Shown here piece by piece: positions 57,970 through 64,000 of a DNA stretch of 64,000 nucleotides. The stretch is from Acutalibacteraceae bacterium (lineage in GTDB: Bacteria; Bacillota; Clostridia; Oscillospirales; Acutalibacteraceae): the NCBI GenBank assembly GCA_045647065.1, contig JAZRLY010000029.1, forward strand, positions 2,548 to 66,547, read 5' to 3'. How positions within the stretch are numbered: position 1 is the stretch's first letter; each line of letters starts with the position of its first letter. Under the pieces are notes generated by a model. That model saw nothing but the letters and a program-made list of their open reading frames with translations. It was not told the DNA's origin and searched no databases. The translations under genes were made by a program, and so were the position numbers.

Positions 57970-60132
57970 TTATCCGACCTGTTTGTTGGTCAGTTTTGCA
58001 GTCTGACGCTGAGCCATAACAAGCTTTGCGTAGATGCCATCTTCGAGCAGAAGCTCACGGTGAGTGCCTGTTTCAGCAATCCTGCCTTTTTCGATAACGA
58101 TAAGTCTGTCGGCATTGCGCAGAGTAGCAAGTCTGTGAGCAATTGCGAAAGTGGTGCGTCCTTTGATAAGCTTCGCAAGTGCATCCTGAATTATTCCCTC
58201 GGTTTCGGGGTCGAGTGCACTCGTTGCCTCATCAAGAATAAGGATTTCCGGGTTGCGGAGCACCGCACGCGCAATCGAAATTCTCTGTCTTTCGCCGCCT
58301 GAAAGATTATGACCGTCCTCGCCGACAACGGTATTATATCCGTCGGGAAGCTTCATTATAAATTCATGGGCATTTGCCGTTTTGGCGGCGGCTACGATTT
58401 CACCCGGAGTTGCATTCGGACGGGCATATGCAATGTTGTCATAAACAGTGCCCGCGAAAAGGAAAGTTTCCTGGAAAACAACGCCTATTTTTTCTCTGTA
58501 TTGGCTCTGACTCATATTTTTTATATCTGTACCGCCGACGGATATTGTGCCTTCGTCAGCGTCGTAAAGCCGCATTATAAGATTTATGAGGGTGGATTTG
58601 CCTGCTCCCGAATGACCCACCAGACCGATCATTTCACCTTGTTTTACGGTGAAACTGATATCCTTGAGCACGGGCTCATATGCCTTGTATCCGAAACGGA
58701 CATTTTCAAAAACGATGTCGCCGTCGAGCTTTGCGGGAACGAGTTTTTCGTCATCCTCAAGTCCGTCTTTTTCATCAAGAATTTCAAAAATCTTGATAAG
58801 GCTTGTTGCAACCTCGCCGAGTCGGCGGGGGAGCGTTGAAATCCAGCGGAGCGGCTGATAGATATAAGCGAGGAAAAGCGTGAATTCGAGCAATTCGCCG
58901 AGAGAGATGGTTCCTTCGATAACCATTCTGCCGCCGAAATAGAGCACGAAAAATTCACCGATTCCCATAAAGAACGAGAGAAACGGAAAAACTTTTGCCC
59001 AGGTCTGTTCGTTGCTTATTGAAACATCGGCAAGCCGTTTGCAGACTCTGTCGAATTTCTCAATTTCTCTGTCCTCACTGCCGAAGGTTTTGACAACTCT
59101 TATGCCTCTTACGATATCGTGGAGAATTGAATTCGAACGCGAATCGCATCTCCATTGCCTCTCGTATCTGTATCTGATGAAATTCCAGAAGCTTCTGATT
59201 GCGTAAATAACAAGCGGAACGGGAACAAAAACAAGAAATGTGAGCAGAGGACTGATGCTGATAAGAATAATGAGAATTGCAATGAACATAATCAGTTTTT
59301 CAATTGCATACATACCCTGCTCGGTGATGAAGCGTTTGACGGTTTCGGTGTCGCGCGTCACTCGTTTCATAAGGTCGCCCGCCGTCTTTTTTGACATCGA
59401 TGAGAGCGAAAGCCTCTGCACCTTGTCATACATCATTATTCTCATGTCATTGAGCATATTTGCACTGACACGGTTAGTTTTTCTCAGGCTGAAAAGCTTT
59501 AGCACCTGACCGATAATCTGAGTCAGTCCGATAAGAAGAACGATTGAAACGACGCCTTTTACCGCCTCTTCGCCTGAAACTGACGGGTTGTTGAAATAAC
59601 CGTCAAGGAGCTTTGCGTTGAGAACGGGAAGAAGCGCTGAAGATGCGGTTGCCAGGGTCAGCAGTATTCCGGAGAAGGCAAGTGCGGGGAGATAATTCTT
59701 TATCATTCCCACAGTGCGTTTTATAAGATAGCTTTTCTCAACGCAGAAAAGGCAGACGTCCATTCCTTTTGCGAAATGTCTGCCGCATTTCGGACATACT
59801 CTGAAGTCCTCGCGTGAAAGCTCCGTTTCTTCGCCTGTTCTTATGTAATGGTTAACAACCTTGCAGAATTCACCGATTTCTTCAACGCAGCTCATCGAAA
59901 AACGGCAGACGGGTATGCTGTCCGCCATTTCTGCATTTTCGCCTTCGGGAATAAGCTCAAGCGTTCCGCAGCCTACATAGGTGCGTTGCATAAGCTCGCC
60001 GATGCCTTCGATTGAGCGTTCAAAAACCGTTTTGCTGTTAACAAAGGCAGAAATTGTTCCGTCTTCAAAAACAATCTCGCCCTTGCACAAATCGCCGCTC
60101 TGCGTAAGGTCAAAAACCGCTTTGGTTTGCAT
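57970..60132 (-). CDS. ABC exporter (TMD-NBD) with N-terminal extension and CxxC-x9-CxxC zinc ribbon
   Basis: CPKCGRHFAKGMDVCLFC; GHSGAGKS, LSGGERQR, ILILDEAT, IAHR. Confidence 0.9.
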   Translation of the reverse strand: MQTKAVFDLTQSGDLCKGEIVFEDGTISAFVNSKTVFERSIEGIGELMQRTYVGCGTLELIPEGENAEMADSIPVCRFSMSCVEEIGEFCKVVNHYIRTGEETELSREDFRVCPKCGRHFAKGMDVCLFCVEKSYLIKRTVGMIKNYLPALAFSGILLTLATASSALLPVLNAKLLDGYFNNPSVSGEEAVKGVVSIVLLIGLTQIIGQVLKLFSLRKTNRVSANMLNDMRIMMYDKVQRLSLSSMSKKTAGDLMKRVTRDTETVKRFITEQGMYAIEKLIMFIAILIILISISPLLTFLVFVPVPLVIYAIRSFWNFIRYRYERQWRCDSRSNSILHDIVRGIRVVKTFGSEDREIEKFDRVCKRLADVSISNEQTWAKVFPFLSFFMGIGEFFVLYFGGRMVIEGTISLGELLEFTLFLAYIYQPLRWISTLPRRLGEVATSLIKIFEILDEKDGLEDDEKLVPAKLDGDIVFENVRFGYKAYEPVLKDISFTVKQGEMIGLVGHSGAGKSTLINLIMRLYDADEGTISVGGTDIKNMSQSQYREKIGVVFQETFLFAGTVYDNIAYARPNATPGEIVAAAKTANAHEFIMKLPDGYNTVVGEDGHNLSGGERQRISIARAVLRNPEILILDEATSALDPETEGIIQDALAKLIKGRTTFAIAHRLATLRNADRLIVIEKGRIAETGTHRELLLEDGIYAKLVMAQRQTAKLTNKQVG

Positions 60133-60164: not shown

Positions 60165-60692
60165 TCAATAAAGATAGGGTTCAAGCTTTTTTCTGCTTTT
60201 TGACGGTATTGAATCAAAATCAAGGATACGGAATCGGTTGCCGTCAATGTCGATAAGGTCAATCGCATCGCCGTGCTGACGGATGCTCTTTGAAATATCT
60301 CTGACCGCAAACGATTTTTTGAAATCACCTATCATAACATCAAAATAGAAATGACCCATCTTTTCTTTTATTGATTCGATTTTTGTGATGACGGGGCAGT
60401 AATAACGCTGGCCGAGTTCTTCATTGATGAGCGACTGCTGTTCAGCTGAAAAAACATTTATATGTTCAATAATTCCGATTTCATTTTTCTCGATATCTGA
60501 AATGCAGATGTAGTCATTCGGCATCACAAGAGGAAGTGCGCGGGTGAGGATTACCCTGCCGTATTCTTTGCCGTTTACGGTTGCCGAGAGAAACCCGTTT
60601 TTGCTTTTTGAAAAAATGCAGTTATCAGGTGTCACATATTCTGTTTTCAGCGATTCAGGTGAAATTGTGTTCGCTGTTCCGTTTTCTTTCAT
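60165..60692 (-). CDS. DUF1854-family soluble protein
   Basis: RALP..YI.I.D...EIGII, EELGQRYYCP.I.KI, DIDGNRFRI, SRKKLE pattern; sandwiched between two ABC exporters. Confidence 0.75.
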   Translation of the reverse strand: MKENGTANTISPESLKTEYVTPDNCIFSKSKNGFLSATVNGKEYGRVILTRALPLVMPNDYICISDIEKNEIGIIEHINVFSAEQQSLINEELGQRYYCPVITKIESIKEKMGHFYFDVMIGDFKKSFAVRDISKSIRQHGDAIDLIDIDGNRFRILDFDSIPSKSRKKLEPYLY

Positions 60693-63052
60693 TATGCTTC
60701 ATCCTCCTTCACATCGGTCTGCACTCCCGTGCCGATACCGATTGTTTTGAGAGCTTCGGATTGGATTTTATATTGCTTGTAGAATTCGCCTTTCTGCTTT
60801 ATAAGTTCTTGGAATGTGCCGTATTCAATAATTTTTCCGTCTTCGATTACTGCAAGATAATCTGCATCCCTGAGCGTTGAAAGACGGTGGGCGATTGCAA
60901 TTGTGGTTCTGCCTTCTTTAAGCTGAGTGAGTGAATACTGAATGTTGCGTTCGGTTTCGGTATCCATCGCTGCCGTTGCTTCGTCAAGAATAAGAATTTT
61001 GGGATTCTGGATTATTGTTCGCGCGATTGAAATTCTCTGCCTTTCGCCGCCCGAAAGCTTCTGACCGCCAGCGCCCACACGGGTTTCGTATGCATCGGGA
61101 AGTTTCATAATGAAATCGTGTGCCGATGCAGCCTTTGCAGCGGCAATGACTTCATCCATTGTGGCATCAGGTTTTGCGTAGCGGATGTTATCGGCAATCG
61201 AACCAATGAAAAGATAGATATCCTGCGAAACAAGACCGATGTTGCGGCGAAGCTCTGTCAGTTTTAAATCCTTTACATCGATACCGTCAATTTTAACATT
61301 GCCTTCCTTTGCATCGTAGAGTCTTGCAATAAGATTGGCGATTGTTGTTTTGCCTGCACCTGTTTTGCCGACGATGCCGAGCATATCGCCCGCTTTAACG
61401 CTCAGACTGAGCTTCTTGATAACGGGTCTTGCGGGTTCATATTCGAACTCAAGCTCGTTAATCTTAATGTCGCCTCGGAGTTTGTCAAAACTTACTGCGT
61501 TTTCTTTTTCTGTAATATCGGGCTTTGCATCGCAGATTTCAAACACACGCTGTGCCGAATCGGCGCATCTTGCCCACCAGTTTGATATCCACGAAAGAAA
61601 ATCAAACGGACCGCGAAGCATTTCCAGGTAAACAATATAGCTCAGAAGAGTACCTGTTGTAAGTTCACCTTTTGCAACCATAACACCGCCGAATCCGAGC
61701 ACGACGGTTGACAGTCCCATAACAAAAATCTCGAGGATCGGGAATACGGTTGCTTCGGTGAGAGAAAGCTTGAGGTCGGCTTTTGTGTGCTCACCGCTGA
61801 GCTTGCTGAAGCGTTCGTATTCATCGTCTTCCTTTGAAAACGCTTTGATAACACGCTGACCGTTGATGTTGTCGCTGACCATCGCAGAAACTCTTGCGCC
61901 GTAAAGCCAGCTTCTGTGATGAAGTCTGCGAAAAACCTTGTCGCCGAAGAAAAGACAAAGGAAAATCACGGGCATTGCACCGATTGTGATGAGCGAAAGC
62001 TTCCAGCTCATTACAAACATAATTGCAACAACGCCGATAATCGTTGCCGTGTCGATAATAAGCGCAGGAACACCGTCAATAAAAAACCAATAAATGTTGT
62101 TTGCGTCGCGCACAACACGCTCCATAAGCGAACCCGTCTGTTTTGATGAATAAAAATTTACCGACAGTCTTTGCATCGCGTTGAATATTTTCAGCTTTAT
62201 GTCATAAACGACCTTCGGCATGATTGCCGCGGTAACATATTGCTGAATGACGGTCAGAACCGTGTTGAGAAGCCTGACTCCGAAAATTGAGAGCACAAGC
62301 ACACCGAGAGCTTTTATCAGTTCTGCGGCGGGCAGACCGTTCGGATTTGCAAGAACATCGTCAAATAACGAACGGGTGCTTATCTGCGGAATAAATACAT
62401 TCACCGCGGAACCGAGGAGCATAATTACGATAATCAGTATAATCTGCGGAATGTATCCGCCGAAGAATTTAAAAAGTCTTAATGCGGTTGATGACTTTTT
62501 GTTGCATTTGGGGCAAAAATCCTTGTCGGGAGGGCAGGGCTTGCCGCATTTGTTGCACTTCTTTTCTTCGGGTTCGGGAGAAGTTGGAATTTCAGCTACA
62601 CCATTCTCCTTGTAGGAATTGAAAGCTCTTACAAAATTTTCAAATTGGGCGATTTTTCCTACGGAAAAACGGACAAGGCTTGAATGCTCGCCGTCTTTTA
62701 TCATTATCAGTCTGCCCGTTGAAACATATCTTTCCGCTTCCAGAGAATCGATTTCGTCAATGGGAATGCTCTGTATGCTTTTTATGGTGAATTCAGGCTC
62801 GGGTCTTTCCCTTTTGTTTTTTCGCTTTGACTTTATTTCTTCTTCGTCACCCATTGCTATGTAAAGTCCCTTGCTGTCGAAACTGAGCCACGCAGAGCAG
62901 TAGCAGGCTTCGTTATCCATATCGCCCGTACAGCAGTAAATAAGGTCTTTTGTGTCAAGACCCGCTTTGTCAAGTGCAAGCATCAGATGTTTTGGAAATT
63001 TACCTTTTTCGTGTTTCAGGGGATTGGGGGATTTTTCTTTTTTCTTACCCAT
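60692..63052 (-). CDS. ABC exporter (TMD-NBD) with N-terminal extension and zinc ribbon
   Basis: CNKCGKPCPPDKDFCPKC; GKTGAGKT, LSGGERQR, ILILDEAT, IAHR. Confidence 0.9.
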   Translation of the reverse strand: MGKKKEKSPNPLKHEKGKFPKHLMLALDKAGLDTKDLIYCCTGDMDNEACYCSAWLSFDSKGLYIAMGDEEEIKSKRKNKRERPEPEFTIKSIQSIPIDEIDSLEAERYVSTGRLIMIKDGEHSSLVRFSVGKIAQFENFVRAFNSYKENGVAEIPTSPEPEEKKCNKCGKPCPPDKDFCPKCNKKSSTALRLFKFFGGYIPQIILIIVIMLLGSAVNVFIPQISTRSLFDDVLANPNGLPAAELIKALGVLVLSIFGVRLLNTVLTVIQQYVTAAIMPKVVYDIKLKIFNAMQRLSVNFYSSKQTGSLMERVVRDANNIYWFFIDGVPALIIDTATIIGVVAIMFVMSWKLSLITIGAMPVIFLCLFFGDKVFRRLHHRSWLYGARVSAMVSDNINGQRVIKAFSKEDDEYERFSKLSGEHTKADLKLSLTEATVFPILEIFVMGLSTVVLGFGGVMVAKGELTTGTLLSYIVYLEMLRGPFDFLSWISNWWARCADSAQRVFEICDAKPDITEKENAVSFDKLRGDIKINELEFEYEPARPVIKKLSLSVKAGDMLGIVGKTGAGKTTIANLIARLYDAKEGNVKIDGIDVKDLKLTELRRNIGLVSQDIYLFIGSIADNIRYAKPDATMDEVIAAAKAASAHDFIMKLPDAYETRVGAGGQKLSGGERQRISIARTIIQNPKILILDEATAAMDTETERNIQYSLTQLKEGRTTIAIAHRLSTLRDADYLAVIEDGKIIEYGTFQELIKQKGEFYKQYKIQSEALKTIGIGTGVQTDVKEDEA

Positions 63053-63147
63053 AAGGAGTCACCACCTTAAATGTAATTTTATACCATTTGCCTTGTTGAT
63101 AACAGTCTTGTATTTATTTTTTCTTTATGATATAATAAGTGTGCAGA

Positions 63148-63188
63148 GAAAACAAAAACAGCGCTTTCGGTCGAAGAAAGCGCTGTTT
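63148..63188 (-). terminator. Intrinsic terminator (candidate attenuator) upstream of the ABC-DUF1854-ABC operon
   Basis: 13-bp perfect stem AAACAGCGCTTTC/GAAAGCGCTGTTT, 7-nt loop, followed by TTGTTTTC. Confidence 0.85.
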
Positions 63189-63210
63189 GTCTTTTAATAA
63201 TACCGCAATA

Positions 63211-63264
63211 TTACACGGACTGCGGGCACAACACTTTCGTATAACCATGATTCATATTCATCAT
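63211..63264 (-). CDS. Putative leader peptide MMNMNHGYTKVLCPQSV (17 aa)
   Basis: Perfect AAAGGAGG RBS (63273..63280) 8 nt upstream of ATG; lies between a promoter and the terminator. Confidence 0.7.
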   Translation of the reverse strand: MMNMNHGYTKVLCPQSV

Positions 63265-63297
63265 TGTGCTCGCCTCCTTTACATAATATTCTCGTTA

Positions 63298-63327
63298 AGT
63301 ATAAACCCGTGGAGAAATATTTGTCAA
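63298..63327 (-). promoter_or_regulatory. SigA promoter for the leader peptide/ABC operon
   Basis: TTGACA-18 nt-TATACT. Confidence 0.7.
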
Positions 63328-63336
63328 GGAGAATTT

Positions 63337-64000
63337 TTATTTGATTAAATCTTCAAACAATTTGATGTTAGACTGTTCGAGTTTAAGCTCGCCCGACTGT
63401 TCCTTTTTGATGATTTCAACGATTCTGTCGTTGACAGGTGTGGGAACACCGCATTTTCTGCCCCATTCGCAAACAACGCCGTTGATTGCATCAACTTCGC
63501 AGGGTTTGCCGTTACGAAGGTCCTGAAGCATTGAGGGGATGATATCAACATGTTTCTTCATTGCGATGGGAATGAGAAGCTCGCCGATTTTACGCTTGAA
63601 TGCGTTTTTATAATAGAAAAGGCTTGTAATGTTTTTGCCCTGAACAGGTGCAAATTCAGCTCCTGCTGCGTGACCGACATCAATACATTCCTTCACACAA
63701 CGGATTGCAACCTTGCGTGCATATGCGTCGCCCGTAACAGTGCCGAATGTGCCGCCCATAACAGTGCCGAGGCCTGAGAATGTTGCGTTGATGAGAAGCT
63801 TTGACCATCTTGTACCGATAAGATTTTCTTCAAAGTGAACGGGGCACATCTTTTCGAGAAGCTCGGTTACTCTTGCCACCTGCTCATCTGTGATTCCGTC
63901 CATTTTACCCATATGGTATGAAAGACTGTCGGGTTCACTTGTCAGAACGCATTCGCCGGGTGCGGCAAGGTTTGCGCCCCATTCAACGGCACATCCCATA
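63337..64000 (-). CDS. panE: 2-dehydropantoate 2-reductase (ketopantoate reductase) family, C-terminal part only (start outside window)
   Basis: RWSKLLINA, PSMLQDL..GKPCEVDAING..GVPTPVN. Confidence 0.8.
   Translation of the reverse strand, partial: MGCAVEWGANLAAPGECVLTSEPDSLSYHMGKMDGITDEQVARVTELLEKMCPVHFEENLIGTRWSKLLINATFSGLGTVMGGTFGTVTGDAYARKVAIRCVKECIDVGHAAGAEFAPVQGKNITSLFYYKNAFKRKIGELLIPIAMKKHVDIIPSMLQDLRNGKPCEVDAINGVVCEWGRKCGVPTPVNDRIVEIIKKEQSGELKLEQSNIKLFEDLIK

What the first reader, a model, noticed from the sequence alone, without database searches (positions are those of the whole stretch)
63148..63327. Unannotated leader-peptide attenuator (MMNMNHGYTKVLCPQSV) upstream of the ABC-DUF1854-ABC operon
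Seen on the minus strand, in order: promoter TTGACA-18-TATACT; perfect RBS AAAGGAGG; a 17-codon ORF (63264..63211); a 13-bp terminator (63188..63156); then the ABC start about 100 nt later. Codons 9-13 contain GAAAGUGUUGU (63238..63228), which can pair over 11 contiguous bp (2 G-U) with the terminator 5' arm ACAGCGCUUUC: an antiterminator, with a nested CCGCAG/UUGCGG helix around the stop codon. The same segment can instead pair with GCACAAU at the start codon (63269..63263): an anti-antiterminator. This is a full 1:2 / 2:3 / 3:4 switch. Inference: a ribosome stalled in about the first four codons masks segment 1 and frees segment 2, allowing read-through, while full translation or no translation favours termination. 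The trigger could be ribosome-targeting antibiotics (established analogues: B. subtilis bmrB-bmrCD, Listeria lmo0919) or Met/Asn-tRNA shortage (M-M-N-M-N). Either would give a functional clue for DUF1854-associated transporters.
Basis: partly seen in the sequence, partly recalled or inferred. Interest (0 to 1): 0.85.

Follow-up and report, generated by a model that had tools for sequence, protein, structure and literature searches.

The report
Ribosome-stall switch before gut Clostridia exporter
A short upstream reading frame and three competing RNA helices, conserved with compensating base changes in related gut Clostridia, are predicted to switch on an uncharacterised ABC exporter operon when a ribosome stalls in the first few codons, most likely in response to translation-blocking antibiotics, and look-alike switches sit before dozens of uncharacterised modifying enzymes.

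Summary
In detail: promoter, SD, 17-codon uORF, 11-bp antiterminator, start-codon-sequestering helix and 13-bp terminator lie at the stated coordinates. Sixteen other distinct leaders precede orthologous operons, and all 17 can form overlapping 1:2, 2:3 and 3:4 helices. 1:2 and 3:4 show compensatory changes; 2:3 covaries in alignment-free tests but not in its fixed core. Nascent-RNA folding gives antiterminator probability 0.98-0.99 with a ribosome on codons 1-5, about 0.1 for naked RNA and 0 from codon 7. The leader belongs to a wider family absent from Rfam; 45 first genes behind it were mostly GNAT acetyltransferases, kinases and ABC exporters, and none was an amino-acid supply gene. This favours sensing of translation inhibitors (bmrB/vmlR/cplR logic) over Met/Asn shortage, but the trigger is untested and codons 2-5 are oddly ANN-rich (66 of 68). 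Six of 17 leaders, this one included, also keep a downstream back-to-back promoter pair. The scan found sibling leaders before on other DNA (e1-4081548). Verdict: a new member family of a known attenuator kind.

The parts
63298..63327 (-). sigma-A-type promoter, TTGACA-18-TATACT; start of transcription predicted near 63291
   Evidence: 11 of 12 matches; similar boxes seen by eye upstream of orthologous leaders
63273..63280 (-). Shine-Dalgarno sequence of the uORF, 8 nt before the AUG
   Evidence: nearly invariant in alignment A1
63211..63264 (-). 17-codon leader uORF; orthologues are 17-23 codons; codons 2-5 start with A in 66 of 68 cases
63262..63273 (-). segment 1 (SD end, spacer, AUG): 5' strand of the anti-antiterminator
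   Evidence: 11 of 12 pairs; 93.5% of cells paired and 2 pairs with two-sided changes in 14 leaders
63222..63238 (-). segment 2 (codons 9-15): 63233..63222 pairs with segment 1; 63238..63228 pairs with the terminator 5' arm; the two uses overlap
   Evidence: overlap in 17 of 17 orthologous leaders
63203..63225 (-). nested helix around the uORF stop (63225..63220 with 63208..63203), predicted to hold the 3' half of segment 2 in the read-through state
   Evidence: the downstream TTGCG is seen by eye in 11 of 14 rows of alignment A2
63148..63188 (-). intrinsic terminator (segments 3:4, 13 bp) with U-tract; 5' arm 63186..63176 is the antiterminator partner; also terminator-like on +
   Evidence: 4 of 11 pairs with two-sided changes in 14 leaders
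63108..63136 (+). predicted antisense promoter (TTGTAT-17-TATAAT with extended TG) aimed into the terminator
   Evidence: kept with a diverged spacer in 6 of 6 long-spacer leaders and absent from the 11 short-spacer leaders
63076..63105 (-). weak predicted internal sense promoter (CTGTTA-18-TAAAAT), back to back with the antisense one
   Evidence: top script hit in 3 leaders; read by eye from the printed spacers in the window and 2 more, one with a changed -35 box
60692..63052 (-). ABC exporter 1 (786 aa; N-terminal extension, ABC_membrane, ABC_tran); first regulated gene
   Evidence: best NCBIfam hit NF052233 at 530 bits, under the 880 cut-off
60165..60692 (-). DUF1854 protein (175 aa)
   Evidence: PF08909 E 2.8e-28; NF052234 under its cut-off
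57970..60132 (-). ABC exporter 2 (720 aa), 36% identical to ABC1, likely its heterodimer partner

Best explanation
This is a conserved leader with a short reading frame and three competing RNA helices that likely works as a ribosome-dependent transcription attenuator, predicted to allow transcription of the ABC-DUF1854-ABC exporter operon only when a ribosome stalls on about codons 1-5, most likely because of a translation-inhibiting antibiotic or similar stress. Shown by sequence comparison: segment 1 (SD end plus AUG) and the terminator 5' arm compete for segment 2 in the uORF's later codons. Inferred: with no ribosome, 1:2 forms and the terminator folds. A ribosome running through covers segment 2, and the terminator again folds. 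A ribosome held at the start or first codons blocks segment 1 but leaves segment 2 free to capture the terminator arm as it is made. The peptide's C-terminal residues are likely a by-product of RNA pairing. Induced exporters and, at sibling loci, acetyltransferases and kinases would remove or modify the inhibitor.
For: Conservation: 17 distinct orthologous leaders keep SD, uORF, terminator and overlapping 1:2 and 2:3 helices.
1:2 helix: 93.5% paired, 7 cells with two-sided change, 2 of 500 shuffles as high.
3:4 helix: 4 pairs with two-sided change, 1 of 500 shuffles as high.
2:3 helix: cognate uORF-arm duplexes average -17.4 vs -13.0 kcal/mol for swapped partners, and 0 of 100,000 permutations were as good (kin are not independent). 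Across 57 distinct peptides, -14.0 vs -9.8.
Folding with the 3' end at 63176 or 63170: P(2:3) 0.09-0.11 naked, 0.98-0.99 with the P site on codons 1-5, 0.00-0.01 on the codons tested from 7 to 18; P(1:2) naked 0.61-0.77 for 3' ends 63215-63170. The same trend holds on average over 17 + 55 leaders.
Peptide: the Cys of 'VLCP' is Arg in 3 and Trp in 1 of 17, and in L042 and L045 the pairing segment falls in another frame.
Operon dependence: 11 of 17 leaders have only 24-78 nt between U-tract and ABC start and no sense promoter candidate scoring 8 or more.
Regulon: of 45 first genes scanned behind sibling leaders, 20 GNAT, 6 adenylate-kinase-like, 6 ABC exporters, 4 LytTR regulators, 2 SAM methyltransferases, 2 ABC-class ATPases, 1 nucleoside phosphorylase, 4 no hit.
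Precedent: the same logic is shown experimentally for vmlR (PMC9226507), cplR (10.1101/2022.12.05.519065) and bmrB-bmrCD (PMC4191407); passages read.
Against: There is no experiment or expression data for any member.
At equilibrium on the full leader the terminator always wins (-46.9 vs -38.7 kcal/mol; P(3:4) 0.89 whatever the ribosome position), so the switch must be kinetic. Naked RNA ending at 63165 already gives P(2:3) 0.62, so the off state may leak. The ribosome footprint (-18 to +13) was assumed.
In the 14-row alignment the fixed 11-bp 2:3 core has no two-sided change, and 500 of 500 shuffles score as high.
No downstream protein reached a curated resistance-family cut-off among the hits shown (34 proteins, best 5 hits each).
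Codons 2-6 are enriched in Met (21% vs 1%), Asn (21% vs 7%) and Thr (15% vs 5%) at the same AU content as ordinary gene starts; plain start-codon arrest does not require this.
Two close orthologues (L033, L034) have no leader, most deeper orthologues lack it, and 6 of 17 leaders keep a possible internal promoter.
Confidence: 0.62

Rival explanations
1. The same attenuator, but the natural trigger is slow decoding of the ANN-codon run at codons 2-5: t6A37 tRNA modification state, shortage of aspartate-family aminoacyl-tRNAs (Met, Thr, Ile, Asn, Lys), or tRNA-synthetase inhibitors. This includes the first reader's Met/Asn idea.
For: Codons 2-5 start with A in 66 of 68 cases while positions 2 and 3 vary; the background is 45-55% per codon and 7% for all four in 690 genes. 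Met+Asn+Thr+Ile+Lys make up 79% of codons 2-6 vs 42% in background, with equal AU content, and 0 of 15 orthologous peptides lack both Met and Asn. The run fills the window where stalling gives read-through. tRNA-modification loss affects thrL (PMC4132733, passages) and bmrB (PMC13733827, passages).
Against: No single residue is conserved. In the wider family codons 4 and 5 are ANN in only 27 and 30 of 38 distinct starts (codons 2-3 there are partly fixed by the search pattern), and 4 of 42 peptides lack both Met and Asn. None of 45 first genes serves amino-acid supply. Known drug-sensing uORFs (MIN, MR[I/M], MK[L/Q]) use the same residues. Kinship inflates the counts.
Confidence: 0.18
2. A general gauge of translation speed or initiation (growth phase, cold, ribosome shortage) rather than of a chemical inhibitor; drugs would induce it only as a side effect.
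For: The geometry responds to any dwell at codons 1-5. bmrCD is also induced by loss of a tRNA modification, and its basal read-through depends on codon choice. Four first genes are LytTR regulators.
Against: The dominance of small-molecule acetyltransferases, kinases and exporters behind the family fits detoxification better than housekeeping.
Confidence: 0.12
3. The leader is a stand-alone small RNA or small-protein gene, or a protein- or ligand-binding switch, and the operon is expressed mainly from the internal promoter after the terminator.
For: A back-to-back promoter pair is conserved in 6 of 17 leaders, including this one. The leader is absent in close relatives L033 and L034.
Against: 11 of 17 leaders have no good internal promoter candidate. 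The peptide sequence is free to change while SD, AUG, open frame and all three pairings are kept. No Rfam riboswitch or T-box match was found. Sibling leaders lie mostly 10-40 nt before many different genes.
Confidence: 0.08

Closest known systems
Bacillus subtilis bmrB-bmrCD leader (PMC4191407, passages read; PMC13689557, passages read)
   Same: A translated leader with predicted anti-antiterminator, antiterminator and terminator ahead of a two-gene ABC exporter; induced by 50S-targeting drugs.
   Different: bmrB is 53 codons with the terminator inside its coding region. Here the uORF is 17-23 codons, ends about 45-60 nt before the U-tract, and its own SD/AUG is segment 1. The operon also holds DUF1854. 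Sequence homology was not tested directly.
vmlR leader of B. subtilis (PMC9226507) and cplR leader of C. difficile (10.1101/2022.12.05.519065); passages read
   Same: The 5' hairpin sequesters the uORF. A ribosome stalled at or near initiation blocks the anti-antiterminator and allows antitermination (shown for vmlR). Early residues are drawn from M, I, N, R, K.
   Different: Those uORFs have 3 codons and control ribosome-protecting ABCF proteins, often with added translational attenuation. Here the long uORF itself carries the antiterminator strand, the terminator does not cover the downstream SD, and the targets are exporters and modifying enzymes.
Listeria lmo0919 leader (seen only as cited in PMC5314783 and the cplR preprint; details recalled)
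   Same: An antibiotic-responsive terminator/antiterminator switch in a Firmicute leader.
   Different: Short uORF and ABCF target (recalled); no sequence link tested.
Amino-acid attenuators such as thrL, leuL and the Bacillus His leader (PMC4132733, PMC5314783, PMC2965389; passages read)
   Same: Four-segment logic with a ribosome on a leader peptide.
   Different: Those have conserved runs of cognate codons and control biosynthesis or synthetase genes; neither holds here.
Cyanophycin-associated ABC transporter plus DUF1854 of beta-Proteobacteria (NF052233, NF052234; 10.1101/072470, passages read)
   Same: Best NCBIfam hits of both ABC proteins and the DUF1854 protein; same ABC-DUF1854 pairing.
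   Different: All three score under the cut-offs. No cyanophycin synthetase over the cut-off was found in this 84%-complete genome, so the substrate is likely different.

Membership tests
Ribosome-stall transcription attenuators of Firmicutes (bmrB/vmlR/cplR kind) | Promoter, SD and short uORF in the leader of the regulated operon | tested here: met
   conserved in 17 distinct leaders
Ribosome-stall transcription attenuators of Firmicutes (bmrB/vmlR/cplR kind) | Intrinsic terminator before the first gene | tested here: met
   predicted and covarying; termination itself not measured
Ribosome-stall transcription attenuators of Firmicutes (bmrB/vmlR/cplR kind) | Antiterminator exclusive of both terminator and anti-antiterminator | tested here: met
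   overlap in 17 of 17; cognate preference; the fixed core shows no two-sided change
Ribosome-stall transcription attenuators of Firmicutes (bmrB/vmlR/cplR kind) | Anti-antiterminator that covers the uORF start | tested here: met
Ribosome-stall transcription attenuators of Firmicutes (bmrB/vmlR/cplR kind) | Read-through needs uORF translation and is induced by ribosome-targeting antibiotics | not testable with these tools
   needs reporters, term-seq or toeprinting
Ribosome-stall transcription attenuators of Firmicutes (bmrB/vmlR/cplR kind) | Regulated genes act in drug export or resistance | tested here: inconclusive
   ABC exporter fold, and GNAT/kinase targets at sibling loci, but no curated resistance cut-off reached among the hits shown
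ARE-ABCF leaders (vmlR, cplR, lmo0919) in the narrow sense | Three-codon uORF and an ABCF ribosome-protection gene downstream | tested here: not met
   uORF of 17-23 codons; downstream genes have transmembrane domains
Amino-acid-sensing leader-peptide attenuators (thrL/leuL/hisL kind) | Conserved run of cognate codons | tested here: inconclusive
   no residue conserved, but Met/Asn/Thr/Ile and ANN codons are enriched
Amino-acid-sensing leader-peptide attenuators (thrL/leuL/hisL kind) | Controls biosynthesis, uptake or synthetase genes of that amino acid | tested here: not met
   0 of 45 first genes scanned; the operon encodes exporters
T-box, riboswitch or other Rfam leader family | Match at the family's gathering score | tested here: not met
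   window 62500-64000: 10 weak hits, all far below gathering; 15 family loci: only one tRNA
Cyanophycin-associated ABC/DUF1854 system (NF052233/NF052234) | Scores over the cut-off and linkage to cphA-like genes | tested here: not met
   530 and 532 vs 880 bits; 55.6 vs 150 bits; no TIGR02068 match over the cut-off in an 84%-complete genome

The most novel reading that the evidence does not exclude
The leader family is a portable sensor of ANN-codon decoding (t6A37 tRNA modification, aspartate-family tRNA charging, or tRNA-synthetase-inhibiting antibiotics) that gut Clostridia place in front of interchangeable detoxification genes and the DUF1854 exporter, making it a dedicated decoding-status switch and a tag for an unrecognised class of inhibitors and resistance enzymes.
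Probability: 0.12. Interest if true: 0.8.

Novelty: new member of a known kind. Interest (0 to 1): 0.5.

Why it matters
The mechanism class is known, but this leader family matches no Rfam entry and my searches found no paper on it. If the trigger is a translation inhibitor, the leader flags dozens of unannotated GNATs, kinases, methyltransferases and exporters of gut and rumen Clostridia as inducible candidate resistance or detoxification genes that family cut-offs miss. It would also give DUF1854-ABC exporters, so far linked only to cyanophycin-like synthetases in beta-Proteobacteria, a testable role in Clostridia. A 150-nt element is easy to test in a laboratory reporter strain.

Tried and rejected
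- Expression data: no RNA holder was listed; this says nothing about expression.
- BLASTN of one family leader against plasmids and phages: no match.
- De novo scan of the own genome with strict filters: 8 candidates, of which only this locus clearly fit the design; it missed the two sibling leaders later found by the model.
- Model hits that were only plain terminators or gene ends were dropped: 22 of 30 family genomes and 4 of 20 genus genomes.
- 6 of 84 loci failed the automatic leader filter and were left out of those counts.
- MAFFT misaligned L042, L044 and L045, so they were left out of A2 and the pair counts and handled by duplex folding.
- The 1:2 column used a wrong register and is invalid; one search corrects it.
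- Alignment A5 is fitted to the model and includes 3 spurious antisense matches, so its strong covariation is only supporting.
- A Cys-Pro arrest motif was considered and rejected because Cys is not conserved.
- Plain AU-richness as the cause of the ANN bias was rejected (AU 0.72 vs 0.71).
- DUF1854 model (pLDDT 85): no Foldseek match at E <= 0.001; best Z 4.7 with weak PH-like matches; no functional clue.
- The ABC1 tree is the quick version; the careful search did not finish.
- Literature searches: 'DUF1854' 1 paper; leader peptide/attenuation/ABC transporter/Clostridia/uORF 2 papers; 'ABC leader' 0; ribosome-mediated attenuation terms 15; attenuator/GNAT/gut terms 0; bmrB terms 12; Oscillospira/riboregulator terms 46, with no occurrence of 'Oscillospira' in the 25 listed; t6A terms 6. 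None seen describes this family.
- Supplementary tables of term-seq and attenuator screens (Dar 2016, PMC5314783, PMC2965389) were not read and could list members.

Full report
Observation. These are the promoter 63327..63298, SD 63280..63273, uORF 63264..63211, terminator 63188..63156 and an 11-bp antiterminator with two G-U pairs. The start-codon helix is longer than reported: 63273..63262 pairs with 63233..63222 at 11 of 12 positions. The operon encodes two ABC exporters of 786 and 720 aa around a DUF1854 protein. Their best NCBIfam models are the cyanophycin-associated ones, all under cut-off, and no cyanophycin synthetase over the cut-off was found in the 84%-complete genome. Named relatives are Acutalibacteraceae/Clostridia MAGs, many titled from ruminant gut.

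Conservation. Sixteen other distinct leaders have SD, a 17-23-codon uORF and a terminator. In all 17, segment 2 is used by both the 1:2 and the 2:3 helix. On the 14 leaders that align well, the 1:2 helix is 93.5% paired with 7 two-sided cells (2 of 500 shuffles as high), and the terminator has 4 pairs with two-sided changes (1 of 500). The fixed 11-bp core of 2:3 has none (500 of 500 shuffles as high), which counts against it. Its covariation lies in upstream extensions and in the divergent leaders L042, L044 and L045. Cognate uORF-arm duplexes average -17.4 against -13.0 kcal/mol for swapped partners, with 0 of 100,000 permutations as good. Across 57 distinct peptides the figures are -14.0 against -9.8. 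Kinship inflates these tests. The peptide is not what is conserved: the Cys is Arg in three leaders and Trp in one, and in L042 and L045 the pairing segment is read in another frame.

Switch geometry. For nascent RNA ending at 63176 or 63170, the antiterminator probability is 0.09-0.11 without a ribosome. It is 0.98-0.99 with a masked footprint on codons 1-5, 0.13-0.74 on codon 6, and 0.00-0.01 on the codons tested from 7 to 18. Naked RNA holds 1:2 at 0.61-0.77 up to that point. Averaged over 17 orthologous and 55 sibling leaders, capture of the terminator arm is highest for codons 1-5 (0.84 and 0.78 for codons 1-4) and lower for naked RNA (0.59, 0.50) or codons 7-12 (about 0.5). Three caveats apply. 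On the full leader the terminator wins in every case, so the decision must be co-transcriptional. Naked RNA ending at 63165 gives 0.62 for 2:3. The footprint was assumed.

A wider family. A covariance model from the 14 leaders found two more leaders in the same genome, before an adenylate-kinase-like gene and a LytTR regulator. After dropping plain terminators by inspection, true uORF leaders occur in 16 of 40 genus genomes and 8 of 150 family genomes. An exact pattern hit 4 of 400 class genomes, all in other families and with no control hits among the rows listed; one carries a near-identical leader. The pattern also hit 30 metagenome stretches, 29 of them with a 16-22-codon uORF. On a model-fitted alignment of 52 matches the 1:2 helix shows two-sided changes in 6 of 12 pairs (fitted, so supporting only). 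I scanned 45 first genes, leaving out near-duplicates and loci cut by contig ends. They were 20 GNAT acetyltransferases, 6 adenylate-kinase-like proteins, 6 ABC exporters, 4 LytTR regulators, 2 SAM methyltransferases, 2 ABC-class ATPases, 1 nucleoside phosphorylase and 4 without a hit. None serves amino-acid synthesis or uptake, and none reached a curated resistance cut-off among the hits shown. Nearly identical leaders precede different first genes, which suggests shuffled gene sets behind one switch.

Link to DUF1854 operons. On a quick ABC1 tree, 17 of 52 rows carry the leader, in two groups, with absence in the nested pair L033/L034 (3 changes against a shuffled mean of 14.4). Four deeper orthologues (L049, L052, L054, L077) have their own longer or divergent uORF-terminator leaders. 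Of 17 loci from distant families of the phylum I judged none convincing; the two automatic hits looked like ends of upstream genes. The regulatory clue therefore holds for part of the Clostridia and not for DUF1854 in general.

Second promoter. The 106-nt spacer after the terminator holds a strong predicted antisense promoter (63108..63136, + strand) aimed at the terminator and a weak sense one (63105..63076). Both keep their spacing, with diverged spacer sequence, in the 6 long-spacer leaders; 11 leaders have short spacers without them. This may give basal expression here, but it does not remove the need for read-through in most relatives.

Trigger. The design matches vmlR, where a ribosome stalled on the uORF blocks the anti-antiterminator (PMC9226507, passages). 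It also matches cplR, whose 5' hairpin sequesters the uORF (10.1101/2022.12.05.519065, passages), and bmrB-bmrCD (PMC4191407, passages). With the regulon content this makes translation inhibitors the likeliest signal (0.62; inferred). One feature is unexplained: codons 2-5 begin with A in 66 of 68 cases against about half in 690 ordinary genes, and Met, Asn and Thr are enriched at equal AU content. The bias weakens in the wider family, and known drug-sensing uORFs use the same residues. A decoding- or charging-based trigger nevertheless stays open (0.18), with precedent in thrL and bmrB. That ANN-reading tRNAs carry t6A37 and that Met, Thr, Ile, Asn and Lys form the aspartate family is recalled knowledge.

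Verdict. This is a real, conserved attenuator and a new member family of a known kind: not in Rfam and not described in the papers my searches returned. Screen supplements were not read. Interest is 0.5: the mechanism would not surprise a specialist, but the family offers a handle on many unannotated inducible enzymes and one testable oddity.

Noticed in passing
window 63076-63136: Back-to-back promoter pair between the terminator and ABC1, including a strong predicted antisense promoter aimed into the terminator; kept in 6 of 6 long-spacer leaders and missing from short-spacer relatives.
   Followed up: partly
G000:C1:271-406 (+) and G000:C26:6937-7092 (-); loci L097, L099: Two sibling leaders in the same genome, before an adenylate-kinase-like ('DNA topology modulation') gene and a LytTR response regulator.
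   Followed up: partly
L148, L150, L151, L158-L160, L162, L164, L165, L176, L199, L206, L209: A nearly identical 18-codon leader precedes different first genes (several GNATs, a kinase, unknown proteins) in different genomes, one from another family (G450); tight runs of small enzyme genes follow, like shuffled cassettes.
   Followed up: partly
L049, L052, L054, L077: Distant DUF1854-linked ABC genes have their own leaders (21-51 codons) whose SD/AUG region is predicted to pair with later codons.
   Followed up: partly
G000:C74:481-864 (+): A second DUF1854 gene in the same genome near a contig end, missed by tblastn with the window's copy.
   Followed up: no
window 60692-63052 and 57970-60132 (-): Both ABC exporters have N-terminal extensions of about 150-200 aa ending in a CxxC...CxxC motif, outside the Pfam matches.
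   Followed up: no
G000:C34:95027-95144 (-): Two consecutive SD-led short ORFs (31 and 15 codons) followed by a terminator just before a 190-aa gene; not related to this family by the model.
   Followed up: no
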